From Minisyncoccota bacterium (lineage in GTDB: Bacteria > Patescibacteriota > Minisyncoccia > Phycocordibacterales > PALSA-1337), in contig JBAYJB010000003.1 of assembly GCA_041665325.1 (NCBI GenBank), positions 1,502 through 65,501 of the forward strand: a DNA stretch of 64,000 nt. The letters run 5' to 3'. A model generated the notes under the pieces. That model saw nothing but the letters and a program-made list of their open reading frames with translations. It searched no databases and was not told where the DNA came from. The stretch's first letter is position 1, and the number at the start of each line of letters is the position of its first letter. Of the stretch, positions 16,041 to 29,574 are shown in pieces. The translations under genes were made by a program, and so were the position numbers.

Positions 16041-18224
16041 TTATTTCTGGATCTCCTTGATGGACGCATCTATCTGATCCTTGTATTCCGGATGATCCTT
16101 GGCGATCTGTCGGAGCGTAGCCACGGCCGCCGAGAGCTGTCCGGCGGTATATTGGGCTTGGGCCAGCTGGATAGCGGCGCCGGCATTCTTGGGGTCGATC
16201 TTCAGGAGGGCTTGGTATATGTCCAAGGCCTTGGAATAGTCCTTGACTGCCATGTAAGCCTGGGCGACCTGCGGCGACTGGAAGATCCCCGTATCGTCCG
16301 CAAACATCTGACGGGCCGCGGCGTCTTTGCCAGCGATGATGAGAGCCACAACATAAGTACTCTTGACCGACACATTATCCGGTGCCGCGTCATATGCAGC
16401 CTTCAGGATATCGACGGCCTCGGCGGCTTTGCCGGAGTTGATGAGACTGATGCCCAACTGGAGACTGATCGACTGTTTGGCTGGCGAGAGCTCATGCGCC
16501 GTCTGTAGCAGAGCGACCGCAGCTGCCGATTGGTTGACGACATTCAGGAATGATCCGCCGAGAGTGTAGATGCGGGCGTCCTTCATGGGCGTAGCGGCGA
16601 TCTGATCCGTGATGGCTTTGTTCGCCAGATCGTAGAAAGCCTGCTTGGTAGGACCGGGGACCTGTTGGTTGCCGATGACGCCGCTCGCGCAAGACAAGAG
16701 CTGTTCACGGATCTCCTGATTGGCTGTGTAGACGTCGATGGCTAGAACCTTCTCGAAAAGAGCGACATCCGGCTGTGAGCCGCAAGCTTGGAGCGCCCTG
16801 ATGAGACCGGTGTTGGCCTTGATCACCCGGACATTGAGGAAATAGATGCCGAAGATAAGGACGATGATGATGACAGGTAGGGCGACATATTCGACAGCTT
16901 CGACGGGCATCGGCTTGTCACCGATCATCTTGATCGGACGGCCTGGGCGCAGAGAGTCAGCGAACCCGAGCGCCGTGAAGAACAGGACGTAACTAGCCAG
17001 GTTGTCGAAGACGAAGATGTTGTGGACGGCATAGCCGGCCAAGAGGCCAGTGAGGATGCTCTTCTCCCCGACAGTGAGTGAGGATCTCCAGATCGAGAAA
17101 AGGAATAGGATATATAGAGACAGGTAGGCGAGCAATCCGACGATACCCGAAGCGGTCAGCCAATCGAGGAAGACACTGTGGGCGCGGTCGAACCATTGCT
17201 CCTGATTCCACATCTTTGGTTCATAATTGGCGTTGAAGATGTAGTTGAAATTCTCCTGACCCCAGCCCAAGATCGGACGCTCGGCAAAGCCCTTCACGGC
17301 CATCGGCCAGATATAGCCGCGGGCTTGAGTCTTGTTCTCTTCCCAGGAGATCGAGGCCATGCGCTGTAAGGTCTCGTTATTCTGGATGAACGGCTGATGA
17401 CGATTGGCCCAGAATACCAAGCTGACCAAGACGATGAGAGCGACGCCGCCTAGAGCCACACCGCGCGACTTCCTGGACTCCTTCTTGCCAAAGACGACAT
17501 ACAGGAGAAGGGCCAAGACAGCGCCGCCTACGAGACCGAGGATCGTGCCGCGGGTAGAAGTCTCGAAGACTTCAAAGGCGAACAGAAGCGCGAGGATCAG
17601 GTATGCCCAGCGCAAAAAAGAGGCATTATTGATCTGCCGAGCTTTGGCCACGAGGAACATGTAAGCGGCCAAGCCGGCATTCCAGAGCATGTATACGGCC
17701 ATGTATGCGGCGTTGCCGAGAGAGGCATCGATACGAGAAGACCCTTGGTGGATGGCTGCCCAACCAAAGAACTGGAAGAGACCGTAGATGCCGACGATGA
17801 GGGCGATGAAGAGCTCGACATTCAAGAATCGATGCCACATCCGCTTCCCCTCTTCGCCGGAACCGAAGATATTGGTAGTGACGAGGAAGAAGGCGCCGAG
17901 GTGAGCGATAGTGAGCCATCCCTCCATACGCTCGAAGTTGGACCAGATGCTACGAAGCGGGTTGACGCCCAGGAGATCGGCGGCCAAAGTGACTAGAGTG
18001 AAGATGCCGATGCCGATCGTGAGCGGCGTCCACTTGGGCCGATACTTGGCGTCGAGGAAAGCTAGGATGAGCCAGGCGGCCAGAGCGACCTCTACGAGGA
18101 TCCTGAAATAGAAAGCCTTGCCGGTGATGAACGGGAAGAAAAAAGGATTAGCGATGATGAGGGGGAAAACTGGGACAAGGAAGATAGCGGCTAGGGCGAG
18201 GAAGCGAGCGGTTTTTTTGATCAT
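16041..18224 (-). CDS. O-antigen ligase/polymerase-family (Wzy_C-like) polytopic membrane protein with a C-terminal TPR-repeat domain.
   Basis: ~12 predicted TM helices with a large periplasmic loop (…RGTILGLVGGAVLALLLY…) typical of the WaaL/Wzy family. The C-terminal ~300 aa form Ala-rich TPR-like repeats. Start placed at MIKKTARF, Met29 of the listed ORF (the listed ORF begins at TTG). Confidence 0.7.
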   Translation of the reverse strand: MIKKTARFLALAAIFLVPVFPLIIANPFFFPFITGKAFYFRILVEVALAAWLILAFLDAKYRPKWTPLTIGIGIFTLVTLAADLLGVNPLRSIWSNFERMEGWLTIAHLGAFFLVTTNIFGSGEEGKRMWHRFLNVELFIALIVGIYGLFQFFGWAAIHQGSSRIDASLGNAAYMAVYMLWNAGLAAYMFLVAKARQINNASFLRWAYLILALLFAFEVFETSTRGTILGLVGGAVLALLLYVVFGKKESRKSRGVALGGVALIVLVSLVFWANRHQPFIQNNETLQRMASISWEENKTQARGYIWPMAVKGFAERPILGWGQENFNYIFNANYEPKMWNQEQWFDRAHSVFLDWLTASGIVGLLAYLSLYILFLFSIWRSSLTVGEKSILTGLLAGYAVHNIFVFDNLASYVLFFTALGFADSLRPGRPIKMIGDKPMPVEAVEYVALPVIIIVLIFGIYFLNVRVIKANTGLIRALQACGSQPDVALFEKVLAIDVYTANQEIREQLLSCASGVIGNQQVPGPTKQAFYDLANKAITDQIAATPMKDARIYTLGGSFLNVVNQSAAAVALLQTAHELSPAKQSISLQLGISLINSGKAAEAVDILKAAYDAAPDNVSVKSTYVVALIIAGKDAAARQMFADDTGIFQSPQVAQAYMAVKDYSKALDIYQALLKIDPKNAGAAIQLAQAQYTAGQLSAAVATLRQIAKDHPEYKDQIDASIKEIQK

Positions 18225-18301
18225 GGTGGTAAGGGTACTATAACATGGCCTATTTGCAAAGTTTAATTGAAAAAACAGGCCCAAAATGCTAGCATGGCCC
18301 C

Positions 18302-19126
18302 ATGTCAACGGCCGTCACCGTCATCCGCCCCAAGCGGTTATTCCACCTCGCCGACCTCAAGGAACTCTGGAATTACCGGGAGCTTTTGTATTTCTTCAGC
18401 TGGCGGGACCTCAAGGTACGCTACAAGCAGACAGCGATCGGCGTCCTCTGGTCGGTCCTACAGCCCTTCATCACTATGGTGGTGTTCTCGTTCTTCTTCG
18501 GCAAGCTCGTCCAGGTGCCGTCTGACGGAGTGCCCTATCCGATCTTCGTGTACACCGGCCTCCTATTCTGGCAATTCTTTTCCGACTCCTTGAATGAGAC
18601 CAGCAACTGTCTCCTGGCCAACAAAGCCATCGTCACCAAGATATACTTCCCGCGACTGATCCTGCCGATCTCTTCTGTACTGACCAAGCTCGTGGACTTC
18701 GCGATCGCCGCGGTCATCATGATCGGTCTCATGTTCTACTATGGATATGTGCCAAGTTGGGGCGGCCTACTCATGCTGCCGCTCTTACTCGTCCTGACAT
18801 TCATGGCCGCGGTCGGGCTCGGCCTCGTCCTGGCTTCGATCAACGTCAAATATCGCGATGTGCGCTACGCCCTGCCCTTCTTCATCCAGATACTACTCTT
18901 CGTCACGCCGGTCATATATCCGGCATCGCTCGCCGGAAGCTATTCGAAGTTTCTGGCCTTGAACCCGATGATGGGCGTGATCCAGAGCGCCCGCGCGGCT
19001 CTCCTCGGCACTACACCGATCAACTGGACGCTCATCCTGACTTCGGCGATCGGCGGACTCATCCTGCTAGGCATCGGCTTGGTCTACTTCAAGAAAACAG
19101 AGAGGTACTTCGCAGATATCATATAG
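18302..19126 (+). CDS. wzm: ABC-2 type polysaccharide export permease (Wzm/TagG/KpsM family).
   Basis: LWNYRELLYFFSWRDLKVRYKQTAIGVLWSVLQPF is the ABC-2 permease signature. Six TM segments, 274 aa. Confidence 0.85.
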   Translation: MSTAVTVIRPKRLFHLADLKELWNYRELLYFFSWRDLKVRYKQTAIGVLWSVLQPFITMVVFSFFFGKLVQVPSDGVPYPIFVYTGLLFWQFFSDSLNETSNCLLANKAIVTKIYFPRLILPISSVLTKLVDFAIAAVIMIGLMFYYGYVPSWGGLLMLPLLLVLTFMAAVGLGLVLASINVKYRDVRYALPFFIQILLFVTPVIYPASLAGSYSKFLALNPMMGVIQSARAALLGTTPINWTLILTSAIGGLILLGIGLVYFKKTERYFADII

Positions 19127-19164: not shown

Positions 19165-19722
19165 ATGAAGCAGAAAGATAACGGTATGCTAGTGTGGATA
19201 ACGGGATTACCTGGTTCCGGCAAGACAACGCTAGCAAACGCTGTATACAAAAAAATAGGTCTTGTTATCCCAGCCATACATATCGACGGCGATCACTTCC
19301 GGGCGATCATGGGTAATGATCTGGGACACAGCATGAAAGACCGTTTAGAAAACGCCTATCGAATAACACGCCTCAACAAACACCTGACTGATCAAGGTAT
19401 CACGGTCATCTGTTCGACAGTCTCGTTGTTCAGGGAAATACACAGATGGAATAGAAAAAATCACAAAAAACTGATGGAAATATATATCGATACTCCCATG
19501 GATATCCTAATGAGGAGAGACCAAAAAGGGATGTATACCGGTGCAGCAAAGAAACAAGTCAAGAATGTACGTGGCTTCGACCAGGGTTTCGATATGCCGC
19601 AAAAACCCGATATGATCATAAGGAATACGGGCAGTCTAAAGAACTTCTTGCTCCATACTGAGAAGATTGTCAGAACTATAAAAAGAAGGAATATATCTCA
19701 TGAAAAAAAGACCAGAAAATAA
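19165..19722 (+). CDS. Adenylylsulfate-kinase-fold enzyme, CysC-like. In context it is most likely a Cj1415-type cytidine-diphosphoramidate 3'-kinase.
   Basis: P-loop LVWITGLPGSGKTTLA and APS-kinase core (HIDGDHFR...LGHS..DR.EN..R...L..GI.VI.S..S..R..R.......EIYIDTP). 186 aa. Its end overlaps the next gene by 23 nt. Confidence 0.8.
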   Translation: MKQKDNGMLVWITGLPGSGKTTLANAVYKKIGLVIPAIHIDGDHFRAIMGNDLGHSMKDRLENAYRITRLNKHLTDQGITVICSTVSLFREIHRWNRKNHKKLMEIYIDTPMDILMRRDQKGMYTGAAKKQVKNVRGFDQGFDMPQKPDMIIRNTGSLKNFLLHTEKIVRTIKRRNISHEKKTRK

Positions 19723-22069
19723 AATCTTTGGCACCAAGGCAGAAACCCTAGAGCGGCTTCATGGCCACTTGAAGAAGTCGGTGGTAGACAAACTGGTGCT
19801 CTTTTCGGTCGAGGACTGGCCGAAAGAAAAATCTGCGATCGTAACCAAGATCATCTCGACATTCCCGAAGAAGCTCCTGATCGTCAGGAGCAGCGCTTTT
19901 GCTGAGGACTCCACTAAGCAGTCGAATGCCGGTCACTTCGCTTCGCTTGGCAACGTGAAGTGCTCCGCTCCGAAGATCGAGAAGGCCGTGGAGGAGGTGA
20001 TCAGCAGATATGACGGAGATATCCGCAACCAGGCCTTCGTCCAAGAACATATCACCGACGTAGACCTAAGCGGCGTCGTCTTCACCAGAGACGTCAACAA
20101 TCTCGCCCCTTACATGACGATAAACTACGACGACTCTAGCGGTCGTACCGATACGATCACTTCCGGTCAGAGCACCGCTCATAAGACGCTCGTCATCTAT
20201 CGGGAGAAGAGGCCTATGCTGACGGACCAGAGGCTCATGAAAGTATATGCGGCAGTGGAGGAACTCGAGAAAGTACTGAAGAGCGATAGGCTCGATATCG
20301 AATTTCTCTACAAGAAGGGAGTGGTGCATATCTTGCAGGCTCGACCTCTCACCGCCAAGACCAAAGAAGCACCCAGCCTCGACAGCGTCTCCGAGATCGT
20401 GCGAGGCATCAGCGACTACATGCGTGAATCTAACGCACCGCATCCGGACCTCTACGGCGACGATACATTCTACGGGATTATGCCTGACTGGAATCCGGCC
20501 GAGATGATCGGCATCAAACCGAGACCACTGGCCTTGTCGCTCTATCGAGAGCTCATCACTGACAGCATCTGGGCGTTCCAGCGCGACAACTACGGCTACA
20601 AGAGGCTGCGCAGCTTCCCTCTCCTGGTGTCGCTCGCGGGGCATCCCTATATCGACCTGCGCGTCGACTTCAACTCGTTCATACCCAAGGCCCTCGATGA
20701 CGATCTGTCTCATCGGCTGGTGAATTTCTATCTCGACAAATTGCGTTCCGTGCCGGCGAGCCACGACAAGATCGAATTCGACATCGTCTATTCCTGCTAC
20801 ACGCTCGATCTGGACGCTCGTCTCATGGAGCTCAAGAGACACGGCTTTTCTGCCAAGGACCGGCAAGCGATCAAAGATTCACTGCTCGAACTGACCAATA
20901 AGATCATCCGTCCCGACGGACTATATAAGGAAGACCTCAAGAAGATAACCACTCTCAAGAAGAGGCTCAAGCCCCTACTCGAATCGAGGCTCACTGAAGC
21001 CAAGAAGATCTACTGGCTTATCGAAGACTGCAAGCGCTACGGCACCCTGCCTTTTGCCGGCATCGCCAGGGCGGCCTTCATCGCCATCCAGCTTTTGGAC
21101 TCTATAGTCAGCCTCGGCATCATCTCCATCGAGGAGAAAAATCTCTTCCTCAGCACTATGAATACAGTAGCCAGACACCTGTCAGAAGATATGGACAAGC
21201 TCAATAGAGGGAAGCTCCCGATCAAGGCCTTCCTCAAAAAATACGGGCATCTCCGTCCGGGGACCTACGACATCCTGTCTGAGAGCTACGAGGAGAATTT
21301 CCACAAATACTTCGACCGCGGCACCAGAGCCGCGGAACCGAGCGCGGACCACCCCAAGAAACTAACGCTCTCTTCCATACAGATGAAGAAGATTGACCGT
21401 CTGCTCAAGAAGCATGGTTTGGCAGTCGATGCCGATGAGTTTTTCCTCTTCATGAAGGAAGCCATCGAGGGACGCGAGTATGCCAAGTTCGTATTCACGC
21501 GAAATATCCATGAGATCCTCAAATCGATCAAGGCTTATGGGACGAGAATCAGTGCTACGCCGGAAGATATGTCGTACGTCGAGATCGGGGCGCTTATGAA
21601 GATGCATTCGGCGGTAATTTTGCCGATTGAAGAGAGGAAGCTCCTCGAGGATATCAAAGCCAACCGAGCTAGGCACAAGCTCAACCGCTTCGTAAAGCTG
21701 CCCCAGCTCATAACACAGCCGGAAGACCTCTATCATTTCTACATGGATAGCATCGAACCGAACTATGTGACCAGCGAGTCGGCCATCGGAAACGTCGCCA
21801 CCATCATCCGCAACACGAGCACCAAAAACATCAAGGGCAAGATCGTGTGTATCGAGAATGCCGATCCAGGCTTCGACTGGATCTTCTCGCATAAGATCAA
21901 AGGCCTGATCACCGCCTACGGCGGCGCCAATTCCCACATGGCTATCCGCGCCGCCGAACTGAACATCCCCGCCGTTATCGGTTGTGGTCCGGCGCTCTTC
22001 GATAAATGGAGCAACGCGAAGAAGATGAAGATCGACTGTCTCAATAAGAAATCCGATGTCCTCTCCTAA
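19700..22069 (+). CDS. PEP-utilizing dikinase-family enzyme (PPDK_N ATP-grasp plus C-terminal phosphohistidine swivel domain). Candidate Cj1418-type L-glutamine kinase.
   Basis: 789 aa. The C-terminal mobile-domain motif IVCIENADPGFDWIFSHKIKGLITAYGGANSHMAIRAAELNIPAVIGCG has the conserved His. There is no TIM-barrel PEP-binding domain, as in rifampin phosphotransferase, glucan-water dikinase and Cj1418. Confidence 0.75.
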   Translation: MKKRPENKIFGTKAETLERLHGHLKKSVVDKLVLFSVEDWPKEKSAIVTKIISTFPKKLLIVRSSAFAEDSTKQSNAGHFASLGNVKCSAPKIEKAVEEVISRYDGDIRNQAFVQEHITDVDLSGVVFTRDVNNLAPYMTINYDDSSGRTDTITSGQSTAHKTLVIYREKRPMLTDQRLMKVYAAVEELEKVLKSDRLDIEFLYKKGVVHILQARPLTAKTKEAPSLDSVSEIVRGISDYMRESNAPHPDLYGDDTFYGIMPDWNPAEMIGIKPRPLALSLYRELITDSIWAFQRDNYGYKRLRSFPLLVSLAGHPYIDLRVDFNSFIPKALDDDLSHRLVNFYLDKLRSVPASHDKIEFDIVYSCYTLDLDARLMELKRHGFSAKDRQAIKDSLLELTNKIIRPDGLYKEDLKKITTLKKRLKPLLESRLTEAKKIYWLIEDCKRYGTLPFAGIARAAFIAIQLLDSIVSLGIISIEEKNLFLSTMNTVARHLSEDMDKLNRGKLPIKAFLKKYGHLRPGTYDILSESYEENFHKYFDRGTRAAEPSADHPKKLTLSSIQMKKIDRLLKKHGLAVDADEFFLFMKEAIEGREYAKFVFTRNIHEILKSIKAYGTRISATPEDMSYVEIGALMKMHSAVILPIEERKLLEDIKANRARHKLNRFVKLPQLITQPEDLYHFYMDSIEPNYVTSESAIGNVATIIRNTSTKNIKGKIVCIENADPGFDWIFSHKIKGLITAYGGANSHMAIRAAELNIPAVIGCGPALFDKWSNAKKMKIDCLNKKSDVLS

Positions 22070-22075: not shown

Positions 22076-22855
22076 ATGAAAGCTATCATCTTAGCGGCAG
22101 GCATGGGAAAGAGGCTCGGCAAGTATACGGCCAATCTGCCCAAGGGTATGCTCTCATTCCGAGGCGAGACTCTGATAGAGAGGCAGGTCAGAACGCTCCG
22201 CTCCTGCGGGATAAAAGATATCTCCATCGTGACCGGTTACGAGGCCAAGAAGATCACTATCCCGGACGTGAAGTATTATCACAACAAAAGATATGCAGAG
22301 ACGAATATGGTCGAGAGCTTGTTTTGTGCCGAGAAAGAACTAAAAGGAGATGTGCTCATCGCTTATTCAGATATCATTTATGAAGATCGAGTAATCAAAC
22401 AAATGATTGAGAGCCTGGCGGATATCGGAGTTGCTGCCGATGAGGATTATCAGGGATACTGGAAGGCTCGTCTCGACAATGAGACAGACGACTTGGAAAG
22501 TCTGGTTGTAGCAAGCGGCCAAATCATCGAGCTTGGCGTTCCCTGCGGCCCGGATAAGGCCGCACTGCGCTACGTCGGCCTGATCAAGTTGTCTTCCAAG
22601 GGAGTAGCAAATATTAAGGAAGTCTATACGGAGAATAGAAAACGCTTCTTTGATTCGAGCGCTCCCTGGTTGGGATCTAAGTCTTTCAAACAGGGCTATA
22701 TGACGAGCCTGCTTCAAGCTACCATTAACGCAGGTCATGAAGTGAAGCCAGTCGTGATTCGCCGGGGTTGGATGGAATTCGACACTGAAAATGATTATGA
22801 GAGAGCCGAGGTTTGGGCCAATAAAGGCAGCTTGGGGAGATTCATAAAATTATGA
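22076..22855 (+). CDS. Nucleotidyltransferase (LicC/Cj1416-like cytidylyltransferase family).
   Basis: N-terminal MKAIILAAGMGKRLG (GxGxR) nucleotidyltransferase motif. 259 aa. Confidence 0.75.
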   Translation: MKAIILAAGMGKRLGKYTANLPKGMLSFRGETLIERQVRTLRSCGIKDISIVTGYEAKKITIPDVKYYHNKRYAETNMVESLFCAEKELKGDVLIAYSDIIYEDRVIKQMIESLADIGVAADEDYQGYWKARLDNETDDLESLVVASGQIIELGVPCGPDKAALRYVGLIKLSSKGVANIKEVYTENRKRFFDSSAPWLGSKSFKQGYMTSLLQATINAGHEVKPVVIRRGWMEFDTENDYERAEVWANKGSLGRFIKL

Positions 22856-23541
22856 AAAAGAATCAGATCGTTGGCATCACACAAAGAGTCACCGTCAACA
22901 AAAATGGCGTCAGGTGTGACACATTGGAACAGAACTACAGTACCTACTTCTCCGCTCTCGGAGTCACTCTCATACCGATACCGAACGACCTCACGAGTGT
23001 CTCCAGCTTCATCGAGTCGACACATATGAGCAAGCTTATCTTCTCCGGCGGCGGAGATATCGATCCTGATCTTTATGGCGGCAAAAGAAAAGATCCGGCC
23101 TCGTATACTGCCGATAGAGAACGAACCGAGAAAGAGCTATTCGCTTATGCGCAGAAGTCCGATATGCCCGTCCTAGGCATCTGCCGCGGCGCGCAGATGA
23201 TCAATGTGCTCTCCGGAGGAAAGCTCCTAGACCTTCGGGAGACATATGGACCGGTTCACGGGCATGTTAAAACATTCCACGACGTCGAGATAGTAGCTGG
23301 CCTCATAACCGGACTGCCAAAGGGGCCAGCGAAGGTCAACTCCTATCATGACTTTGGTTTCACCAAAAAGGAGCTAGGCCAAGGACTGGTGGCTTTCGCC
23401 AAGGCCAAGGACGGCATTGTCGAAGGCATCGGGAATATAGATAAAAAGATATATGGTATATTATGGCATCCAGAACGCGACGGCATAGACCGAGAAGAGT
23501 TGACCAAGAAGATTATCGAAGCTTTTTTATCCGATACATAA
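22852..23541 (+). CDS. Class I glutamine-amidotransferase-like / peptidase C26 hydrolase (Cj1417-like gamma-glutamyl hydrolase candidate).
   Basis: Catalytic triad motifs PVLGICRGAQMIN and ILWHPERDG. 229 aa. ATGA start/stop overlap with the upstream gene. Confidence 0.75.
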   Translation: MKKNQIVGITQRVTVNKNGVRCDTLEQNYSTYFSALGVTLIPIPNDLTSVSSFIESTHMSKLIFSGGGDIDPDLYGGKRKDPASYTADRERTEKELFAYAQKSDMPVLGICRGAQMINVLSGGKLLDLRETYGPVHGHVKTFHDVEIVAGLITGLPKGPAKVNSYHDFGFTKKELGQGLVAFAKAKDGIVEGIGNIDKKIYGILWHPERDGIDREELTKKIIEAFLSDT

Positions 23542-23551: not shown

Positions 23552-24313
23552 ATGAAACAAGGCGACTTTACAACTCTGGCGAAGAACTACATCCACCGCG
23601 CCGGATATTCGCCACTTGTGCTCGAGACTATATATAAGTATGCCGGATTTACTAAAGACACCCTGATCGCCGACGTGGCGGCCGGCACCGGCAAACTTAC
23701 AGAGAACCTCTTGGCCTACCCGAGTAGAAAGCTATTCTGTATCGAACCGAATGATGCCATGAGGGAGGAAGGCGGCAAATATATAAATGATAAAAGAGTC
23801 AGTTGGGCCAAGGGATCGGGCGAAAAGACCGGACTACCGACGGCTTCCATAGACTGGGTGACCGTGGGTTCGGCCTTCCACTGGATGGACTTGGTCGTGA
23901 CCCTGGGAGAATTCCATCGGATCCTCAAGCCCGGCGGCGTCTTCACAGCCATCTGGAATCCTCGCGATATCTCCGGTAGCGAACTACACAGTAAGATCGA
24001 GAAGAAGATCCATGATATGGCGCCTTTTATCGAGAGGAAGTCTTCCGGCTCCGGAAAATACACCGAAGACCTAGACGAGAAGATCGTCAGCACCTCCCAG
24101 TTCCGTGACATCATATATATGGAAGCCAAACATGAAGAAAAGATGAGCAAGGAAAGATATATGGGCATATGGGATTCCGTCAATGACATTCCCGCTCAGA
24201 CCGGACCGGAGCTCTGGGACAAGATCCTCGCCGAGATCAGAGCGATCATCGAGCCCTACGGTGAGATCATTGTGCCCTACAAGACCCGATCCTGGACTGC
24301 ACGAAAAGTGTAA
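23552..24313 (+). CDS. Class I SAM-dependent methyltransferase (Cj1419/Cj1420-like candidate).
   Basis: Motif I IADVAAGTGKLTENL, a motif II/III-like VTVGSAFHWMD, and LKPGGVF. Confidence 0.75.
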   Translation: MKQGDFTTLAKNYIHRAGYSPLVLETIYKYAGFTKDTLIADVAAGTGKLTENLLAYPSRKLFCIEPNDAMREEGGKYINDKRVSWAKGSGEKTGLPTASIDWVTVGSAFHWMDLVVTLGEFHRILKPGGVFTAIWNPRDISGSELHSKIEKKIHDMAPFIERKSSGSGKYTEDLDEKIVSTSQFRDIIYMEAKHEEKMSKERYMGIWDSVNDIPAQTGPELWDKILAEIRAIIEPYGEIIVPYKTRSWTARKV

Positions 24314-24323: not shown

Positions 24324-25859
24324 ATGAATAAGCGCACAGAAATACAACTGGTCGCGTCGCACTTCCCATCTGGTCTATCCTGGCTGAACAACTTCCTCTT
24401 GGAGATCGGCGTGCTCGCCTACAACGGGGACGCGACCTTCGATGGTATGTGGCAACGGATCGGAGATCATACCTTCAGACTGAAGGAGACTGAGGAGCGT
24501 CAGAGGCAATGGCTGCCGGTCCTGAGCAAAAAACTAATCTTCGACTTTCCGGAAGATATCATGGTCAGATGGTCTCACAATCTGCCGATGATAGTCAGAG
24601 AGGAGCAGAAGACGATCTTATTTGTACGAGATGGTAGGGACGCCGTATATTCAGCCTTCAAAAGGGAGGGCCTCTATAGCTCGCTAGAAGCTATGGTCAA
24701 GGCAAGATGTGCCCCCCTGAGTCTCACCCCTCCGGAAACATGGGCGGTGTTCAATCGTCTATGGATAGAGAACGTCACTCCTTCGTGCCTGAGGGTGGTG
24801 AAGTTTGAAGACCTGAAGACAAAGCCATACGAGACCATCAAGGATATACTGGAATTCATCGGAGTAGAGCGTCGAGACGCGGACATTCTATCCGCCATCG
24901 AGTCATCTAGTTTTGAAAATGCAAAAAGAGCCGAGGTCGCGCACAAGGAACATGATCGGAGCACGATTGTGCCGACGATAAACAGAAGTGGTGCGATCTT
25001 CGAGTGGAAGGGGCGATATGACAGTGCCTCGTTATCGACATTCAAGGGGTTCCCTGAAAAGATGCTATCGTACCTCGGATATGAAACCTCCGGCAGCGAC
25101 AATAAGACAAGACCGGATGCAAAATTGCCGGGATATACTTCAGACGAGGAGAAGAAATTCGTCGAAGCGTGGCAAAGATACACGAGGACCTACCGGCAGG
25201 GACGGTGGCAATACGATATCCTCATCAAGATGCGGGAAGTAAGAGCGTGGTCCAAAAATGTGGCCCTCAAACTGCTGAGCATCGAGCTCCTCTCAAGCCT
25301 TATCAAAACAAAAGATCCATATATTAAGTTTACATATAGCCCGAACGGCGAAGACATCCTGATTGGCAACATACTGATGAAGAAAAATTCAAAGACATTC
25401 GATGATATCAACGGGTTGTATGTCAGTATCGATCCTCCCCACCCGCGAAAGTGTTCTTACACCTACTTGTTATATAATCATGGCTGGAGAGGCCTAAACA
25501 TCGTGGATGCTAGTTTATACTCCACATTCAGGAGAGATCGGCCGCACGATAAGAATTTCCTCTCGAACAATGGCGAGGGCAGCGAAAACGGTCGCCAACC
25601 AATAAAAGACCTGCTCTCCAAGAACCTTCCCCGCGAAAGATCCTTGGGTCTCCTTGTTCTCGATCAAGAGAGCAGGAATGGTGAAATGGTAGAGTCAAAT
25701 ATCTGGAGTTTACGGCCGAAGCTTGTGATTGCCAGGGATTCAAGATACTCCCCCGCAAGACCTGATGATTCGGAGCTATATTCTTTCATGAAACGGACCG
25801 GGTACAGCTTGATAGGTTGGATGAACCAGACTATGGCCTTTTTGGACCAGACAAGGTAA
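24324..25859 (+). CDS. Two-domain protein: N-terminal sulfotransferase-fold domain (PAPS-type 5'-PSB and 3'-PB motifs) fused to a C-terminal degenerate FkbM-like methyltransferase-fold domain.
   Basis: N-domain VASHFPSGLSWL (5'-PSB-like) and ILFVRDGRDAVYSAF (3'-PB RDxRD..S.Y). C-domain TYSPNGEDILIGNIL...YTYLLYNHGWRGLNIVDA is homologous to the N-terminus of the FkbM protein at 27152, but the Gly-rich SAM loop is replaced by VSIDPP. Start placed at Met48 of the listed ORF. Confidence 0.65.
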   Translation: MNKRTEIQLVASHFPSGLSWLNNFLLEIGVLAYNGDATFDGMWQRIGDHTFRLKETEERQRQWLPVLSKKLIFDFPEDIMVRWSHNLPMIVREEQKTILFVRDGRDAVYSAFKREGLYSSLEAMVKARCAPLSLTPPETWAVFNRLWIENVTPSCLRVVKFEDLKTKPYETIKDILEFIGVERRDADILSAIESSSFENAKRAEVAHKEHDRSTIVPTINRSGAIFEWKGRYDSASLSTFKGFPEKMLSYLGYETSGSDNKTRPDAKLPGYTSDEEKKFVEAWQRYTRTYRQGRWQYDILIKMREVRAWSKNVALKLLSIELLSSLIKTKDPYIKFTYSPNGEDILIGNILMKKNSKTFDDINGLYVSIDPPHPRKCSYTYLLYNHGWRGLNIVDASLYSTFRRDRPHDKNFLSNNGEGSENGRQPIKDLLSKNLPRERSLGLLVLDQESRNGEMVESNIWSLRPKLVIARDSRYSPARPDDSELYSFMKRTGYSLIGWMNQTMAFLDQTR

Positions 25860-25874: not shown

Positions 25875-27155
25875 ATGAGCAAACCGATAATAGAAGTCAG
25901 GAATATTAGCAAGCGCTACGATATCACACATACGCATGGCGGCTATGTGGCCTTGCGCGATGTCCTGACAACGATCATGCGTCGGCCATTCTCCTTCTTG
26001 GCGCACAAGGCCAAGCGCGCCGTCGGCCTCGAGAAAAAAGAAGAATTCTGGGCGCTCAAAGATGTGAGCTTCGCCGTAAATAGGGGCGAGGTCATCGGGG
26101 TAATCGGCGCGAACGGCGCCGGCAAGTCCACCCTGCTCAAGATACTCTCCCAGATCACGCCGCCCACCGGAGGCGAGGTCATCCTGCGAGGCCGGGTCGG
26201 CTCCCTTCTTGAGGTCGGTACCGGCTTCCATCCAGAATTGACCGGTCGCGAAAATATCTTCTTGAACGGGGCCATCCTCGGCATGAAGAAACAGGAGATC
26301 GCCGCGAAGTTCGATCAGATCGTCGACTTCGCAGGGATCGAAAGATTCTTAGATACACCTGTCAAGCACTATTCGAGCGGTATGTATGTGCGGCTGGCTT
26401 TCTCCGTAGCCGCTCACATGGAGCCGGATATCCTCCTCGTCGACGAAGTCCTAGCTGTAGGTGATGCAGAATTCCAGAAGAAATGCCTCGGTAAGATGGA
26501 CGAGATCACTAGGAATGAAGGCCGAACTATCATCTTCGTGAGCCATAGTCTGAATACGATCCGAGACCTATGCCCAACTACAATCTTGATGAAGGAGGGG
26601 CGTATAGACCTAGTCGGTCCGACCGACGAAGTGATCGACCATTATCAGGAAGAGATCAAGGGGCTGCGCTCTATCGATCTTCGAAATGAAACTAGGAGGC
26701 GTGGCACCGGAGCAATCAAATTGACAGATTTTTATGTCGAAAACTCTGACGGAAGCAAATCAACCATGGTCAAAAGCGGAGAATCCACCACTTTCGTATT
26801 GTCTTATGAGTGCGCAAAACCAGAGAATGTAAAAACTGCTGATGTTGGCATATCTATAAATAGGAACGGGGCACCAATCGCGACTTTTTATAGTTCATAC
26901 GTCAAGAGCTCCTTATCCGACATTGCTACATCTGGACAATTCCGCTTCTCGGCCGAAAATATTCCGCTCGCTGAAGGCACTTACGGCATTGGCGCACGCG
27001 TACTTGCGAATGATGTCGAGGCCGACTGGCCAAAATCAGAAATCGGCCAACTCGAGGTTTCAAATCCGACAGAATTCAAGGAGAAAGGATTTCGCACGGG
27101 GGCGGGCTCAGCAGTCATCATAAATGGCCTTTGGAGTCACATCCCTTCCAAATGA
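25875..27155 (+). CDS. wzt: ABC transporter ATP-binding protein Wzt/TagH-type with a C-terminal carbohydrate-binding (Wzt_C-like) extension.
   Basis: Walker A GVIGANGAGKSTLLKIL, signature YSSGMYVRLAFS, Walker B ILLVDEVLAVGD. A ~150-aa C-terminal beta-rich extension follows. 426 aa. Confidence 0.85.
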   Translation: MSKPIIEVRNISKRYDITHTHGGYVALRDVLTTIMRRPFSFLAHKAKRAVGLEKKEEFWALKDVSFAVNRGEVIGVIGANGAGKSTLLKILSQITPPTGGEVILRGRVGSLLEVGTGFHPELTGRENIFLNGAILGMKKQEIAAKFDQIVDFAGIERFLDTPVKHYSSGMYVRLAFSVAAHMEPDILLVDEVLAVGDAEFQKKCLGKMDEITRNEGRTIIFVSHSLNTIRDLCPTTILMKEGRIDLVGPTDEVIDHYQEEIKGLRSIDLRNETRRRGTGAIKLTDFYVENSDGSKSTMVKSGESTTFVLSYECAKPENVKTADVGISINRNGAPIATFYSSYVKSSLSDIATSGQFRFSAENIPLAEGTYGIGARVLANDVEADWPKSEIGQLEVSNPTEFKEKGFRTGAGSAVIINGLWSHIPSK

Positions 27156-27868
27156 AAAAAACGTTGAAAGCCATGATCCGAGCGTTAGTCAAGCTGATTC
27201 CGCTCGAATTTATTGAGCAGATGATTTCCTTGAAGATGGGCTATCCAACGATCTCGTATGGTCCAAACGGAGAAGACGCCATTTTAAGGAACATGCTCCG
27301 CGGCATAAGCGGCGGCTTCTACATAGATGTTGGCGCATATCATCCCAATAGGTTTTCTAATACACGCACCTTTTACAATGATGGCTGGTCCGGCATAAAT
27401 ATAGATGCGATGCCAGGTAGCATGAAAGCGTTCATGAAAGAGCGCCCCAGAGATATCAACCTCGAATCAGCCGTATCTGACAGGACCGAGACATTGACAT
27501 ATCACGTGTTTGCGGAACAAGCATACAACACCTTCTCTCATGAATTGGCAACGGAGTGTGTAAAGTCAGGGAAAAACAAAATACGCGAGATAAAACTCGA
27601 CACGATGCGGCTTGTAGACATCCTCGATGAGTACATGCCGAAAGACAAAATAATAAATTTGCTTTCGATCGATGTGGAGGGATACGATATGGCGGTTCTC
27701 CGATCAAATGATTGGATAAGGTATCTCCCCGAGGTCATAGCTATAGAAGAAATTGGCTTCGACGTCGAGGCTCCCCAGAAATCAGAGATATTCAACTTCC
27801 TCAAAAGCAAAGGTTACCATCTGGAAGTGGCTATGCCCAAAACGATATTTTTCCGTCTACACAAATGA
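27152..27868 (+). CDS. FkbM-family SAM-dependent methyltransferase.
   Basis: GFYIDVGAYHPNRFSN...GINIDAMPGSMKAF...ESAVSDRTETLTYHV matches the FkbM-family pattern. Start placed at MKKTLKAM, forming an ATGA overlap with the wzt stop. Confidence 0.75.
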   Translation: MKKTLKAMIRALVKLIPLEFIEQMISLKMGYPTISYGPNGEDAILRNMLRGISGGFYIDVGAYHPNRFSNTRTFYNDGWSGINIDAMPGSMKAFMKERPRDINLESAVSDRTETLTYHVFAEQAYNTFSHELATECVKSGKNKIREIKLDTMRLVDILDEYMPKDKIINLLSIDVEGYDMAVLRSNDWIRYLPEVIAIEEIGFDVEAPQKSEIFNFLKSKGYHLEVAMPKTIFFRLHK

Positions 27869-29574
27869 AACCACTTAAGACCCCTATCCTGTTCATTGCC
27901 TTCAATCGTCCAGGACCTACTAAGGATGTTTTTGCGGAGATCCGTAAGGCACGCCCCGAAAAACTCTTCGTGGCAGTCGATGGCCCGAGAAAAGACCGGC
28001 CAGAAGATGTGGACAAAGTAAACAAGGTTCAGGAGATAGTGAGCCAAGTAGACTGGCCATGTGAAGTAAAAAAACTCTTCAGAACAGAGAACCTCGGATG
28101 CAAAATCGGCGCGACTTCGGCTATCACATGGTTCTTCGAACATGTCGAGGAAGGCATCATTGTGGAAGACGACTGTCTGCCGGAACAATCCTTCTTTGCC
28201 TTCTGTTCTGAAATGCTCGAGCATTTCCGCAATGAGCCGAGGGTAGCCATGATCTGCGGGTATAACATAGAGAAGACTTCTGATCTTCCGTATTCCTATA
28301 CCTTCTCACGCTACGGACATCTCTGGGGCTGGGCTTCATGGAAAAGGATCTGGGATCAATACGATGTGACCATGAAAGTTTGGGACAATATTGATAACCG
28401 CAAGAAGATTAGAAAAGCCATGGATGATTATCGGCAATGGAATTATCGCGAGTGGCTATACAATGAGACCTACGAGGGTCGCAAGGATACGTGGGACTAC
28501 CAGTGGGAATCATATCGCCTACTTCATAGTCAGATCTGCGTGATCCCAAATAGGAACATGATCAGAAATCTGGGTTTTGGCGCCGATGCCACTCACACCA
28601 AGCAAACTACTTCGCACCTCGTCATTCCAGGACAAACCATGAAGTTTCCTCTAGCACATAATCCAGACCTGGTAGCCAGTGACTACTATGATCGACTACT
28701 CCGCCCCAAGATCAAAGCCCAAAGCCGACTGCGGAGATCGCTCAAGGATAGAAGCTTTAGACTGGGGAAACTATTGCTCCCGCCATTCATATATCAGTTA
28801 GTCAGGAAGCTCATCCGGGGCACAAAAGTATGGAAGCCTATCTGGAATACCCTTGATTATGAACCGATGGCCGGAGTGAAGATGTTCTTTGACCCTTCCG
28901 GCTCCTGGCAGAGCAAGATGAAGAATGGGTCGTATGATAAGTTCATGTTCGACCGAGTATCCGCCATCGGCGCCGAAGGCAAGGTGATCTACGATATCGG
29001 TGCACATGTCGGATACCATTCCCTCTATTTCGCCCGGCTTGTTGGTAAAAACGGCAAGGTTATCACGATTGAACCTAATAAGAAGAACTTTGAGCGCCTA
29101 AAGAAGAACATAGACGAAAACAAGGATCTGAAAGAAAGGATATCAGCATTTAATATTGCGGTTGGAGACAAGGATGGGAAAGTGGAATTCAACATAAATG
29201 AAGATGTCGAGGGAGGTCGTAGCACTGGCAGCTTCATAGGCACGGCCGACACATTCTCAAGCCGCGAGACATATAAGAATAAGGGGTTCACAAAAACTTC
29301 TGTTGACCTAGTGACTATAGATTCATTTGAGAAGATGCTTAGCATTCACGACGCTCCAGACATCATCAAAATCGACGTTGAGGGCGCCGAGTCATTGGCT
29401 CTCGAGGGCGCCAGGGGAATCTTACTCGCTAAGAAACCGGTGCTTTTTGTCGAGATCCATTCGATGAGAAACATGTCAGATGTCATGAACTTCTTACACT
29501 CGATATCATATGAGGCCAAGATCGCTAATATTGAGGGCAATGGGGTGTGTTATATAGAGGCACACGCTAAGTGA
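27865..29574 (+). CDS. Fusion of a GT-A-fold glycosyltransferase-like domain (EDD motif) with a C-terminal FkbM-family methyltransferase.
   Basis: N-domain ILFIAFNRPGPTKDVF...LFVAVDGPR...GIIVEDDCLP. C-domain VIYDIGAHVGYHSLYFARLVGKNGKVITIEPNKKNFERLKKNI...IIKIDVEGAESLALEGA is classic FkbM. ATGA overlap with the upstream gene. Confidence 0.7.
   Translation: MKPLKTPILFIAFNRPGPTKDVFAEIRKARPEKLFVAVDGPRKDRPEDVDKVNKVQEIVSQVDWPCEVKKLFRTENLGCKIGATSAITWFFEHVEEGIIVEDDCLPEQSFFAFCSEMLEHFRNEPRVAMICGYNIEKTSDLPYSYTFSRYGHLWGWASWKRIWDQYDVTMKVWDNIDNRKKIRKAMDDYRQWNYREWLYNETYEGRKDTWDYQWESYRLLHSQICVIPNRNMIRNLGFGADATHTKQTTSHLVIPGQTMKFPLAHNPDLVASDYYDRLLRPKIKAQSRLRRSLKDRSFRLGKLLLPPFIYQLVRKLIRGTKVWKPIWNTLDYEPMAGVKMFFDPSGSWQSKMKNGSYDKFMFDRVSAIGAEGKVIYDIGAHVGYHSLYFARLVGKNGKVITIEPNKKNFERLKKNIDENKDLKERISAFNIAVGDKDGKVEFNINEDVEGGRSTGSFIGTADTFSSRETYKNKGFTKTSVDLVTIDSFEKMLSIHDAPDIIKIDVEGAESLALEGARGILLAKKPVLFVEIHSMRNMSDVMNFLHSISYEAKIANIEGNGVCYIEAHAK

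What the first reader, a model, noticed from the sequence alone, without database searches (positions are those of the whole stretch)
24324..25859. Sulfotransferase-fold/FkbM-fold fusion as candidate phosphoramidate transferase using a PAPS-analogous 3'-phospho-CDP-amidate donor
Immediately after the cassette lies a protein whose N-terminal domain has recognisable sulfotransferase 5'-PSB (HFPSGLSWL) and 3'-PB (RDGRDAVYSAF) motifs. These are the loops that bind the 5'-phosphosulfate and 3'-phosphate of PAPS. The MeOPN donor, 3'-phospho-cytidine-5'-diphosphoramidate, is a structural analogue of PAPS. A sulfotransferase scaffold would therefore be a natural solution for transferring the phosphoramidate to a sugar hydroxyl. 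The fused C-terminal FkbM-like domain has lost the Gly-rich SAM loop (VSIDPP). It may be a degenerate acceptor-binding module rather than an active methyltransferase.
Basis: inference. Interest (0 to 1): 0.8.

Follow-up and report, generated by a model that had tools for sequence, protein, structure and literature searches.

The report
Sulfotransferase-fold candidate phosphoramidate transferase
This gene encodes a sulfotransferase-shaped enzyme that always sits beside the genes making a PAPS-like phosphoramidate donor, so it is probably the unidentified enzyme that attaches phosphoramidate to a surface sugar, and it offers a small, tractable model for a step never reconstituted in Campylobacter.

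Summary
Window 24324-25859 (+) encodes a 511-aa protein. Its N-terminal 260 residues form a confident sulfotransferase fold. Its C-terminal third is a decayed copy of the FkbM methyltransferase gene 1.3 kb downstream.

The gene closes an operon encoding homologues of C. jejuni Cj1415-Cj1418 plus a Cj1419/20-like methyltransferase. These make the O-methyl-phosphoramidate (MeOPN) donor 3'-phospho-CDP-amidate. The cassette lies between wzm and wzt in a Candidatus Paceibacterota MAG.

The protein keeps the catalytic His and all 3'-phosphate-binding residues. Its whole family has lost both sulfuryl-contacting lysines.

Close relatives are almost always next to the same cassette: 10 of 10 metagenome loci with upstream DNA, and 4 of 5 informative encoding-contig look-ups. 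Among 48 glutamine-kinase loci with both flanks present, 34 carry a sulfotransferase-like gene within three genes. These genes come from at least four different families, some fused to methyltransferases.

The genetically proven C. jejuni MeOPN transferases belong to a different sequence family (NF058596). They nevertheless appear to hide a divergent sulfotransferase-like core.

I rate it a new variant of a known kind.

The parts
24324..25859 (+). Complete gene: 511-aa fusion of a sulfotransferase-like domain and a degenerate FkbM-like domain (the finding)
   Evidence: ORF, RBS and stop. Identical to an NCBI protein annotated 'sulfotransferase domain-containing protein [Candidatus Paceibacterota bacterium]'.
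24324..25103 (+). Sulfotransferase-fold domain (res 1-260), the proposed phosphoramidate-transferase catalytic domain
   Evidence: Pfam PF00685 42.8 bits. AF2 pLDDT >90. Foldseek top hits are all PAP(S) sulfotransferases. 369 representative homologues at E<1e-10.
24357..24386 (+). 5'-PSB-like loop SHFPSGLSWL. G17 and W20 are conserved. The position of the canonical catalytic Lys is Pro15.
24570..24578 (+). W83-S84-H85: putative catalytic base His85. The second sulfuryl-contacting Lys of SULTs (K106 equivalent, mapped from my knowledge of SULT1E1) is Trp83.
   Evidence: W83 and H85 are at least 90% conserved in 80 family members.
24627..24659 (+). 3'-phosphate-binding motif RDGRDAVYSAF (R102 and S110 invariant)
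24981..25010 (+). NRSGAIFEWK, equivalent to the RKGxxGDWK 3'-phosphate-binding loop of SULTs (R221, G223, W228 conserved)
   Evidence: HMMER alignment to SULT2A8. Conservation.
25104..25265 (+). Helical linker between the two domains (res 261-314)
   Evidence: AF2 secondary structure H274-291, H295-302 and the start of H314-328, at low to medium confidence.
25266..25841 (+). Degenerate FkbM-like domain (res 315-506). It is a paralogue of gene 27152-27868. The SAM motif I is lost (VSIDPP at 25422-25439) and there is an internal deletion.
   Evidence: BLASTP E=2e-23. jackhmmer links it to FkbM. No Pfam hit. AF2 pLDDT <50.
19165..19722 (+). Cj1415-like kinase (APS-kinase fold), the presumed CDP-amidate 3'-kinase
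   Evidence: PF01583 125.6 bits and NF004041 170.9 bits. 44% identity to the C. jejuni homologue, E=5e-40. Start codon.
19700..22069 (+). Cj1418-like L-glutamine kinase
   Evidence: NF004508 963 bits. The C. jejuni Cj1418-position protein hits the same model at 1172 bits.
22076..22855 (+). Cj1416-like cytidylyltransferase
   Evidence: PF12804 64.3 bits. Conserved position in the cassette.
22852..23541 (+). Cj1417-like glutamine-amidotransferase-fold hydrolase (gamma-glutamyl-CDP-amidate hydrolase-like)
   Evidence: PF07722 112.8 bits. NF045546 81.5 bits, below its cut-off of 250.
23552..24313 (+). Class I SAM methyltransferase (Cj1419/Cj1420-like)
   Evidence: PF08241 52.8 bits. Always present in the cassette.
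18302..19126 (+). Wzm-type ABC-2 permease immediately upstream of the cassette
   Evidence: Translation. My label by homology to the PF01061:ABC2_membrane genes of L001/L005.
25875..27155 (+). Wzt-type ABC ATPase with a C-terminal carbohydrate-binding domain, immediately downstream
   Evidence: PF00005 81.3 bits and PF14524 Wzt_C 39 bits.
27152..27868 (+). Intact FkbM-family methyltransferase, the parent paralogue of the target's C-terminal domain
   Evidence: PF05050 74.3 bits. BLASTP.

Best explanation
The N-terminal domain is a phosphoramidate (MeOPN-type) transferase built on the sulfotransferase scaffold.

Proposed mechanism, by analogy with sulfotransferases:
1. The upstream genes make 3'-phospho-cytidine-5'-diphosphoramidate. 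The order is glutamine kinase, cytidylyltransferase, gamma-glutamyl-CDP-amidate hydrolase, then 3'-kinase. This pathway is established for C. jejuni; here it is inferred by homology.
2. The sulfotransferase-like domain binds this PAPS analogue through its retained 3'-phosphate site (R102, S110, R221/G223) and P-loop (G17, W20).
3. His85 deprotonates a sugar hydroxyl of the growing glycan.
4. That hydroxyl attacks the terminal phosphorus, releasing cytidine 3',5'-bisphosphate.
5. A SAM methyltransferase (23552-24313) O-methylates the phosphoramidate, before or after transfer.

The two lysines that stabilise the sulfuryl group in true sulfotransferases are replaced family-wide (Pro15, Trp83). 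This fits a transferred group that carries an NH2 instead of an O-, but that link is my inference.

The C-terminal FkbM-like domain is a catalytically dead relic of a local duplication. Its role (acceptor binding, partner docking or none) is unknown.

The cassette lies between wzm and wzt, and the Wzt carries a carbohydrate-binding domain. The modification may therefore be a chain-end cap of an ABC-exported cell-surface glycan. This last step is speculative.

What is shown: fold, motif retention and loss, synteny, co-occurrence. What is inferred: donor, acceptor, chemistry.
For: Fold and residues
- Confident sulfotransferase model with PDB matches all to PAP(S) enzymes; Pfam.
- H85, R102, S110, R221, G223 and W20 are invariant or at least 90% conserved in 80 homologues.

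The transferase is the only missing step
- The operon encodes homologues of Cj1415-1418 plus a methyltransferase, and this is the only cassette gene left without a role.

Synteny of the family with the cassette
- P0153 (39% id), P0005, P0057 (35% id) and the tandem-domain P0155 all lie beside the cassette.
- In 10 of 10 metagenome loci with upstream DNA, cassette genes lie directly upstream.
- This includes a Sulfuricurvum locus (L027) in the same phylum as Campylobacter.

The reverse direction
- Of 78 glutamine-kinase loci from GTDB genomes, 34 have a sulfotransferase-like gene adjacent to or inside the cassette. About 9 would be expected from the local gene density (p=1.5e-11).
- Of the 48 loci with at least 5 kb on both flanks, 34 have one within 3 genes.
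- At least four different sulfotransferase-like families fill this slot.

Supporting associations
- Sulfotransferase-methyltransferase fusions occur in the target's family and in the 'ST8' family, matching the transfer-then-methylate logic.
- A CysQ-like 3',5'-bisphosphate nucleotidase sits in or next to the cassette in 12 of the 86 labelled loci, all of them among the 80 GTDB loci. One more was seen in a metagenome locus, L092. It would recycle the predicted by-product.

The proven C. jejuni transferases look sulfotransferase-like too
- Collinear PSB / 3'-PB / FEDL-like motifs.
- hhalign scores of 27.0 and 33.6 against shuffled maxima of 20.3 and 15.1.
Against: - There is no biochemical or genetic evidence for this protein or any member of its family.
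- Sequence alone cannot distinguish a cytidine donor from an adenosine donor. The Trp that stacks on adenine in SULTs is retained (W20).
- One of the cassette-associated families (ST3) keeps a canonical Arg in the P-loop (GRSGS). Loss of the lysine is therefore not a universal signature.
- About a quarter to a third of complete cassette loci have no recognisable sulfotransferase-like gene. The Pseudomonas flagellar loci instead carry a TagF-like CDP-glycerol-type phosphotransferase, so other folds may do the job.
- One family member (P0042) lies after wzm/wzt with no cassette within 8 kb. A distant member (P0142) lies next to only a PK-like gene and an APS-kinase-like gene.
- The C. jejuni structural comparison rests on a low-confidence model (pLDDT 54.5), and Foldseek found nothing significant.
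- The fusion architecture is known from a single assembly.
Confidence: 0.68

Rival explanations
1. It is a genuine PAPS-dependent sulfotransferase that sulfates the same polysaccharide. Its position next to the phosphoramidate cassette only reflects co-location of glycan-decorating genes.
For: - Pfam Sulfotransfer_1 scores above threshold.
- The structural neighbours are all PAPS enzymes.
- The catalytic His, the 3'-phosphate site and the adenine-stacking Trp are retained.
- The source annotation says sulfotransferase.
Against: - The Lys of the PSB loop and the Lys two residues before the catalytic His are absent in essentially the whole family.
- The tight, order-conserved linkage to the cassette (10/10 and 4/5 loci) is not expected for an unrelated decoration.
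- The only APS-kinase-like gene nearby is the Cj1415 type, sharing the NF004041 subfamily with C. jejuni Cj1415.
- No ATP-sulfurylase, PAPS-reductase or CysQ signature motif occurs in the 64-kb window. This was a simple regex, so the evidence is weak.
Confidence: 0.12
2. The sulfotransferase-like domain uses a 3'-phosphonucleotide donor from this cassette but transfers something other than bare phosphoramidate. Candidates are the pre-methylated O-methyl phosphoramidate, or in loci lacking the Cj1417-type hydrolase a phospho-glutamine-type group.
For: - The cassette always contains a methyltransferase, and the family is sometimes fused to one, so methylation could precede transfer.
- Loci L005 and L008 have the family member, kinase, glutamine kinase and cytidylyltransferase, but no amidotransferase-fold hydrolase within the cluster.
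Against: - This window does encode the hydrolase homologue.
- In C. jejuni, unmethylated phosphoramidate is observed on the capsule (review PMC9561416), which favours methylation after transfer.
Confidence: 0.1
3. The protein is a non-catalytic scaffold or regulator, and the true transferase is another gene in the locus or elsewhere in the genome. For example it could be a chain-terminator or ruler that binds the nucleotide or the glycan end.
For: - Both sulfuryl-stabilising lysines are lost.
- The protein is fused to a dead methyltransferase domain through a helical linker.
- It sits between wzm and wzt, where chain-terminating proteins such as WbdD are encoded in E. coli (my own knowledge).
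- Some cassettes have a TagF-like gene rather than a sulfotransferase-like gene.
Against: - His85 and the complete nucleotide-binding site are under strong conservation, which is typical of an active enzyme.
- No TagF-like or NF058596-like gene was labelled in the annotated part of this locus.
- Most homologues are stand-alone proteins of 330-400 aa without scaffold-like extensions.
Confidence: 0.07

Closest known systems
C. jejuni MeOPN transferases Cj1421/Cj1422 (NCBIfam NF058596 'CJJ1420_fam'; Pfam DUF8374 + DUF2972)
   Same: - Same genomic slot: directly beside the Cj1415-1420-type genes.
- Same predicted reaction.
   Different: - There is no detectable HMM-level similarity. The target has no NF058596 hit, and hmmsearch of three sulfotransferase-like HMMs against the C. 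jejuni protein is negative.
- The C. jejuni proteins are about 610 aa, with a roughly 240-residue helical N-terminal region and a DUF2972 C-terminal domain.
- They were absent from all 80 non-Campylobacter loci.
- They are phase-variable through poly-G tracts (literature). The target has no long homopolymer.
Cytosolic and bacterial PAPS-dependent sulfotransferases (Pfam PF00685; e.g. SULT2B1b, SULT1E1, Teg12/StaL)
   Same: - Fold (Foldseek E about 5e-8, TM about 0.56-0.59 normalised to the target).
- Catalytic His.
- 3'-PB Arg/Ser and the RxGxxGxWK loop.
- The Trp of the PSB loop.
   Different: - The PSB Lys is replaced by Pro/Gly/Ala/Ser, and the Lys before the catalytic His by Trp, across the family.
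- Only 12-19% identity.
- Dedicated genomic association with a CDP-amidate pathway instead of sulfate activation.
E. coli O9a WbdD / Wzt-C chain-termination system (own knowledge, not tested)
   Same: - A small phosphate-based methylated cap (methyl phosphate versus methyl phosphoramidate).
- Capping genes encoded with wzm and wzt.
- The Wzt has a C-terminal carbohydrate-binding domain (PF14524 present here).
- Multiple methyltransferase domains.
   Different: - WbdD is a kinase-methyltransferase with a coiled-coil ruler, not a sulfotransferase fold.
- There is no evidence here for the position of the modification on the glycan.
FkbM-family methyltransferases (Pfam PF05050 / TIGR01444)
   Same: The C-terminal domain aligns over about 190 residues with the intact in-window FkbM enzyme (E=2e-23).
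   Different: - Falls below all Pfam and NCBIfam thresholds.
- The glycine-rich motif I is destroyed (DVGA to SIDP).
- About 40 residues are deleted.
- Probably inactive.

Membership tests
PAPS-type sulfotransferase fold (Pfam PF00685 Sulfotransfer_1) | Profile match above the curated gathering score | tested here: met
   42.8 bits against a cut-off of 22, E=5.5e-11. 77 of 80 family members also match.
PAPS-type sulfotransferase fold (Pfam PF00685 Sulfotransfer_1) | Three-dimensional fold: P-loop-like alpha/beta core superposable on solved sulfotransferases | tested here: met
   AF2 pLDDT >90 for res 1-260. The top 50 Foldseek PDB hits are all PAP(S)-binding sulfotransferase-fold proteins (two are retinol dehydratase).
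PAPS-type sulfotransferase fold (Pfam PF00685 Sulfotransfer_1) | 3'-phosphate-binding residues (3'-PB Arg and Ser; RxG loop) and the catalytic His | tested here: met
   R102 and S110 are invariant. H85, R221 and G223 are at least 90% conserved. Alignment to SULT2A8.
Catalytically canonical sulfotransferase (sulfuryl transfer from PAPS) | Conserved Lys (or Arg) in the 5'-PSB loop (PKSGTTW) contacting the leaving-group or sulfuryl oxygens | tested here: not met
   The position is Pro15. Across the top 150 representatives it is P, G, A or S.
Catalytically canonical sulfotransferase (sulfuryl transfer from PAPS) | Actual use of PAPS as donor | not testable with these tools
   Needs an enzyme assay. 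No sulfate-activation motifs were found in the window by regex, which is weak evidence.
C. jejuni O-methyl phosphoramidate transferase family (NCBIfam NF058596 CJJ1420_fam; Pfam DUF2972/DUF8374) | Match to the curated family model | tested here: not met
   The target has zero NCBIfam hits at E<=0.01. The C. jejuni protein scores 747 bits. A Cj1421-family HMM finds nothing in the window or the 80 loci.
C. jejuni O-methyl phosphoramidate transferase family (NCBIfam NF058596 CJJ1420_fam; Pfam DUF2972/DUF8374) | Gene adjacent to the Cj1415-1420-type biosynthetic genes | tested here: met
   The target follows the cassette directly. The same holds in the related loci. The C. jejuni arrangement is shown.
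C. jejuni O-methyl phosphoramidate transferase family (NCBIfam NF058596 CJJ1420_fam; Pfam DUF2972/DUF8374) | Remote homology of the catalytic core (shared fold) | tested here: inconclusive
C. jejuni O-methyl phosphoramidate transferase family (NCBIfam NF058596 CJJ1420_fam; Pfam DUF2972/DUF8374) | Loss of the MeOPN modification on gene inactivation | not testable with these tools
   Genetic evidence exists only for Cj1421/Cj1422 (McNally 2007, as cited in PMC9561416 and PMC3546167).
FkbM methyltransferase family (PF05050/TIGR01444), C-terminal domain | Profile match above threshold | tested here: not met
   No Pfam or NCBIfam hit even at E<=1. Homology is seen only by BLASTP to the in-window paralogue.
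FkbM methyltransferase family (PF05050/TIGR01444), C-terminal domain | Glycine-rich SAM-binding motif I (DxGAxxG) | tested here: not met
   YIDVGAYHP in the paralogue is YVSIDPPHP in the target, and an internal deletion of about 40 residues is present.

The most novel reading that the evidence does not exclude
Sulfotransferase-fold proteins are the general phosphoramidate transferases of bacteria. On this reading they form a polyphyletic set of at least four or five families (the target's family, a Sulfotransfer_3-like family, the unannotated 'GLFGTGR/YRHPLDSLL' family, a second Sulfotransfer_1 family, and the cryptic core of C. jejuni Cj1421/Cj1422). They partner glutamine-kinase cassettes present in more than 570 species across many phyla, including CPR bacteria. 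In wzm/wzt loci such as this one, the methyl phosphoramidate would be a non-reducing-end cap read by the Wzt carbohydrate-binding domain, a nitrogen analogue of the E. coli O9a methyl-phosphate terminator.
Probability: 0.4. Interest if true: 0.85.

Novelty: new variant of a known kind. Interest (0 to 1): 0.68.

Why it matters
The transfer step of O-methyl-phosphoramidate biosynthesis has not been reconstituted. MeOPN is a capsule decoration of C. jejuni that acts as a phage receptor. In 2025 the laboratory that solved the donor pathway still listed the decoration mechanism as something to be elucidated (PMC12409886).

If sulfotransferase-fold proteins do this chemistry, three things follow.
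- Small soluble homologues (334-380 aa, e.g. P0153 and P0057) become obvious candidates for in vitro assays with the already-synthesised donor.
- It would show a classic enzyme scaffold re-tooled from S-O to P-O bond formation with a P-N-containing group. The loss of two catalytic lysines would then be a testable specificity determinant.
- It would give a sequence marker for predicting phosphoramidate-modified glycans. The cassette scan here shows these are far more widespread than the Campylobacter-centred literature implies: more than 570 species in many phyla, including Patescibacteria.

Tried and rejected
- Primary pathway papers. PMC5938747, PMC6643276 and PMC5629633 (Taylor/Raushel) are not held. 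Statements about the donor and the PAPS analogy therefore rest on my own knowledge plus a review figure legend.
- Literature co-mentions. Searches for sulfotransferase together with Cj1421, phosphoramidate transferase or glutamine kinase found nothing relevant. That is absence from this library only.
- First homology search. The word-index search found only 3 proteins. The exhaustive HMMER search was needed.
- My recollection that Cj1421/22 were TagF-like. This was wrong. The 'CGPTase' of PMC8949473 is a different gene. The real family is DUF8374+DUF2972 / NF058596.
- Candidate neighbour clusters. Clusters c22, c28 and c85 looked like antisense ORF artefacts on reading their sequences. c98 is an MCP chemoreceptor, and c21 looks like a metallophosphoesterase from its GNHDY motif, with no Pfam match.
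- Metagenome scan. A 12-sequence alignment worked.
- Sulfate-activation genes. A regex screen of the window found none. It is too crude to carry much weight.
- Phase variation. It is not indicated. The longest homopolymer in the gene is C6.
Full report
**What is there**

Window 24324-25859 (+) is a clean 511-codon gene. An AAGGA ribosome-binding site precedes the ATG. The start lies 10 nt after the stop of the upstream gene, and the next gene starts 16 nt after its stop. The identical protein is in NCBI as 'sulfotransferase domain-containing protein' from a Candidatus Paceibacterota MAG, known from one contig.

**N-terminal domain**

Pfam Sulfotransfer_1 matches at 42.8 bits against a cut-off of 22. 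With an 80-sequence alignment, AlphaFold2 models res 1-260 at pLDDT above 90. Foldseek against the PDB returns only PAP(S)-bound sulfotransferase-fold proteins among the top 50, with E about 5e-8.

Family conservation covers the catalytic base (H85), the 3'-phosphate-binding Arg and Ser (R102, S110), the RxG loop (R221, G223, W228), and the Gly and Trp of the P-loop (G17, W20).

Two features depart from true sulfotransferases.
- The Lys of PKSGTTW is Pro15. HMMER aligns 'hfPsglsw' to 'YPKSGTHW' of SULT2A8.
- The residue two before the catalytic His is Trp83. From my knowledge of SULT1E1 (K106-T-H108), that position is a second sulfuryl-contacting Lys.

These are family traits, not private mutations. 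In the 150 best representatives the P-loop reads xPSGxxWL, xGSGxxWL or xASGxxWL.

**C-terminal domain**

No profile library recognises res 261-511, and AlphaFold gives low confidence there. BLASTP of res 315-506 against the intact FkbM methyltransferase encoded at 27152-27868 gives E=2e-23. In the alignment, the SAM motif I YIDVGAYHP becomes YVSIDPPHP, and about 40 residues of the paralogue have no counterpart.

This is therefore a decayed local duplicate of an FkbM gene fused to the sulfotransferase-like domain through a helical linker. I found no other protein with this architecture, so it is not independently confirmed. Its function is unknown, and it is probably not an active methyltransferase.

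**Context**

The gene is the last of a co-directional block:

| Coordinates | Product |
|---|---|
| 18302-19126 | wzm |
| 19165-19722 | APS-kinase-like gene |
| 19700-22069 | 789-aa PEP-utiliser, 963 bits to NF004508 |
| 22076-22855 | MobA-like nucleotidyltransferase |
| 22852-23541 | Peptidase_C26 amidotransferase-fold protein |
| 23552-24313 | class I methyltransferase |
| 24324-25859 | the target |
| 25875-27155 | wzt, with a Wzt_C carbohydrate-binding domain |

I fetched a C. jejuni capsule locus (L086). It has the order KpsS-KpsC-Cj1415-1416-1417-1418-1419-1420-Cj1421-like. Its proteins hit the same NCBIfam models:
- NF004041 for the kinase.
- NF004508 for the glutamine kinase.
- NF045546 for the hydrolase. 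The window's protein reaches only 81.5 bits, below the cut-off of 250.

The two kinases are 44% identical. The window therefore encodes the whole known route to 3'-phospho-CDP-amidate plus a methyltransferase. The step with no assigned gene is the transferase.

**Is the link with the cassette more than local coincidence? (a) Starting from the protein**

The exhaustive HMMER search gave 369 representative homologues at E<1e-10, all matching only the N-terminal domain.

I looked up the contigs of seven of them.
- P0153 (Patescibacteria, 39% id), P0005, P0057 (35% id, 'PREPSGATWL' subgroup) and the tandem-domain P0155 all sit directly beside the kinase / glutamine kinase / cytidylyltransferase / (hydrolase) / methyltransferase genes. 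Gene order differs between them.
- P0042, a sulfotransferase-methyltransferase fusion, follows wzm/wzt but has no cassette within 8 kb.
- P0142, a distant member, is next to a PK-like gene and an APS-kinase-like gene only.
- P0134 is on a 1.7-kb contig and is uninformative.

A scan of JGI metagenomes with the closest subgroup found 12 loci. All 10 that contain upstream DNA have cassette genes immediately upstream. One of them (L092) reads wzm-wzt-kinase-GlnK-CysQ-NTP-GATase-MTase-ST, nearly the arrangement of the window.

**Is the link with the cassette more than local coincidence? (b) Starting from the cassette**

Glutamine-kinase homologues occur in at least 571 GTDB species genomes from many phyla. 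I labelled the 80 best loci with my own HMMs.
- A sulfotransferase-like gene is adjacent to or inside the cassette in 34 of 78 loci. The density of such genes in the same loci predicts about 9 (binomial p=1.5e-11).
- Among the 48 loci with at least 5 kb on both sides, 34 have one within three genes.

These genes belong to at least four families:
- The target's family.
- A Sulfotransfer_3-type family (51 bits).
- A family with no Pfam match but clear GLFGTGR and YRHPLDSLLT motifs.
- A second Sulfotransfer_1 family.

Several are fused to class I methyltransferases:
- P0002, P0006, P0042, P0091 and L030 in the target's family.
- L038 and L055 in the 'ST8' family.

These fusions are documented.

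A CysQ-like bisphosphate nucleotidase is in or beside the cassette in 12 of the labelled loci. This fits a reaction whose by-product is cytidine 3',5'-bisphosphate.

Not every locus fits. Pseudomonas loci next to flgK/flgL carry a TagF-like Glyphos_transf gene instead, and several loci have no recognisable candidate.

**Comparison with the known transferases**

The C. jejuni protein at the Cj1421 position is 619 aa. It carries DUF8374 + DUF2972 and scores 747 bits to NCBIfam NF058596, 'O-methyl phosphoramidate transferase'.

The target does not match that model. The three sulfotransferase-like HMMs I tested (the target's family, the Sulfotransfer_3-type family and ST8) do not match the C. jejuni protein. 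The target is therefore not a member of that family.

The C. jejuni family nevertheless has, in the right order:
- a beta-strand plus glycine loop (FVFLSAGVSGHAAM / FVFLLVHGAGTTAM);
- an RDP motif (FLVRDPIERLKS);
- an FYIDMEEIKP segment that parallels VVKFEDLKTKP of the target.

Profile-profile alignment of its core against the target's family scores 27.0, and against the Sulfotransfer_3-like family 33.6. Column-shuffled controls gave 13.3±2.4 (max 20.3) and 11.4±1.5 (max 15.1).

I regard a shared fold as likely but not settled.

**Mechanism proposed**

The steps below are inference; the shown facts are those above. The domain binds 3'-phospho-CDP-amidate as sulfotransferases bind PAPS. His85 activates a glycan hydroxyl, which attacks the terminal phosphorus in line. 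pCp leaves, and a methyltransferase O-methylates the phosphoramidate.

Replacing the two lysines with uncharged residues is what one might expect when one sulfuryl oxygen is replaced by an NH2 donor group. This cannot be a general rule, because the Sulfotransfer_3-like cassette partners keep an Arg.

The cassette is inserted between wzm and a Wzt_C-bearing wzt, here and in L001, L005, L008 and L092. This suggests that the modification may be the terminal cap recognised for export. It would be analogous to the methyl-phosphate cap of E. coli O9a (my own knowledge). That idea is untested.

**Rivals**

- A true PAPS sulfotransferase (about 0.12). Fold and annotation fit. The lost lysines, the dedicated synteny and the Cj1415-type kinase argue against it.
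- A related donor or transferred group (about 0.10).
- A non-catalytic scaffold (about 0.07). The strict conservation of the active-site His and the nucleotide site argues against it.

**Novelty and verdict**

The function (MeOPN transferase) and the PAPS analogy of the donor are known. Assigning the function to canonical sulfotransferase-family proteins does not appear in the library I could search. Neither does the breadth of the association. A 2022 review still calls the glutamine kinase C. jejuni-specific, and in 2025 the decoration enzymology was still described as open.

I class this as a new variant of a known kind. It is well supported computationally (confidence about 0.68), biochemically unproven, and of good practical interest because it offers small, probably soluble enzymes for a reaction not yet reconstituted.

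Noticed in passing
window 18302-19126 (wzm) and 25875-27155 (wzt); also L001, L005, L008, L092: The whole phosphoramidate cassette is inserted between wzm and a wzt that carries a Wzt_C carbohydrate-binding domain. The same adjacency recurs in four other loci. This suggests that methyl phosphoramidate might be a chain-terminating, export-signalling cap, like the methyl phosphate of E. coli O9a.
   Followed up: partly
L006-L085 (GTDB genomes): Cj1418-type glutamine kinase homologues (43-49% identical to the window's) occur in at least 571 species. They span Acidobacteriota, Alpha-/Gammaproteobacteria, Pseudomonas, Bdellovibrionota, Planctomycetes, Sericytochromatia, Bacillota, Elusimicrobiota, Nitrospina and others. 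A 2022 review nevertheless calls the enzyme C. jejuni-specific.
   Followed up: partly
e.g. L007:12919-13692, L025, L044, L058:6723-7523, L084, L092:6943-7725: A CysQ-like inositol-monophosphatase-family gene (Pfam Inositol_P, 160 bits) sits inside or beside the cassette in 12 of the 80 genome loci and in one metagenome locus. It is a plausible recycler of the cytidine 3',5'-bisphosphate by-product.
   Followed up: partly
L033, L035, L038, L047, L052, L055, L057, L064, L068, L070, L078, L081, L083: An unannotated protein family with no Pfam hit has sulfotransferase-like motifs GLFGTGR and YRHPLDSLLT. It is found next to the cassette mainly in Acidobacteriota. It is sometimes fused to a methyltransferase (about 900 aa) and is often next to a metallophosphoesterase-like gene (GNHDY motif).
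   Followed up: partly
L040, L048, L054, L062, L073 (Pseudomonas): In these loci the cassette lies next to flagellar hook-associated genes (flgK/flgL-like by sequence). It comes with a TagF-like Glyphos_transf gene, a formyltransferase-like gene and aminotransferases, and with no sulfotransferase-like gene. This may reflect a phosphoramidate decoration of flagellin glycan made by a different transferase fold.
   Followed up: no
L005 and L008: These loci have the sulfotransferase-like gene, kinase, methyltransferase, glutamine kinase and cytidylyltransferase. No Cj1417-type hydrolase lies within the cluster. The transferred group may differ, or the hydrolase may be encoded elsewhere.
   Followed up: no
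L091:6630-9343: A distant member of the target's family is followed by a pyruvate-kinase-domain protein and an APS-kinase-like gene, without the glutamine-kinase genes. This may be a different 3'-phosphonucleotide donor system.
   Followed up: no
window 27152-27868, 27865-29574, 35755-36450: Three further FkbM-family methyltransferase domains lie in the same polysaccharide locus. One is fused to an N-terminal domain of about 350 aa with no Pfam match (FIAFNRP motif, possibly a glycosyltransferase). The first is the parent of the target's dead C-terminal domain.
   Followed up: partly
window 30545-33175: An 876-aa multi-domain protein. It begins with an NAD-dependent epimerase/dehydratase-like Rossmann motif (GGLGYVG) and ends with a region resembling sugar C-methyltransferases. 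I did not analyse it.
   Followed up: no
window 16041-18308 (-): A 755-aa membrane protein with a C-terminal TPR region lies next to the locus. Its homologue in L004 carries Wzy_C plus TPR Pfam hits, which suggests an O-antigen-ligase/polymerase-like protein in a CPR bacterium.
   Followed up: no
L086:632-2874 (C. jejuni): Upstream of the Cj1421-like gene in this C. jejuni strain lie an APH-like phosphotransferase (507 aa) and a weak nucleotidyltransferase-like protein (240 aa). These are strain-specific capsule genes that I did not examine further.
   Followed up: no
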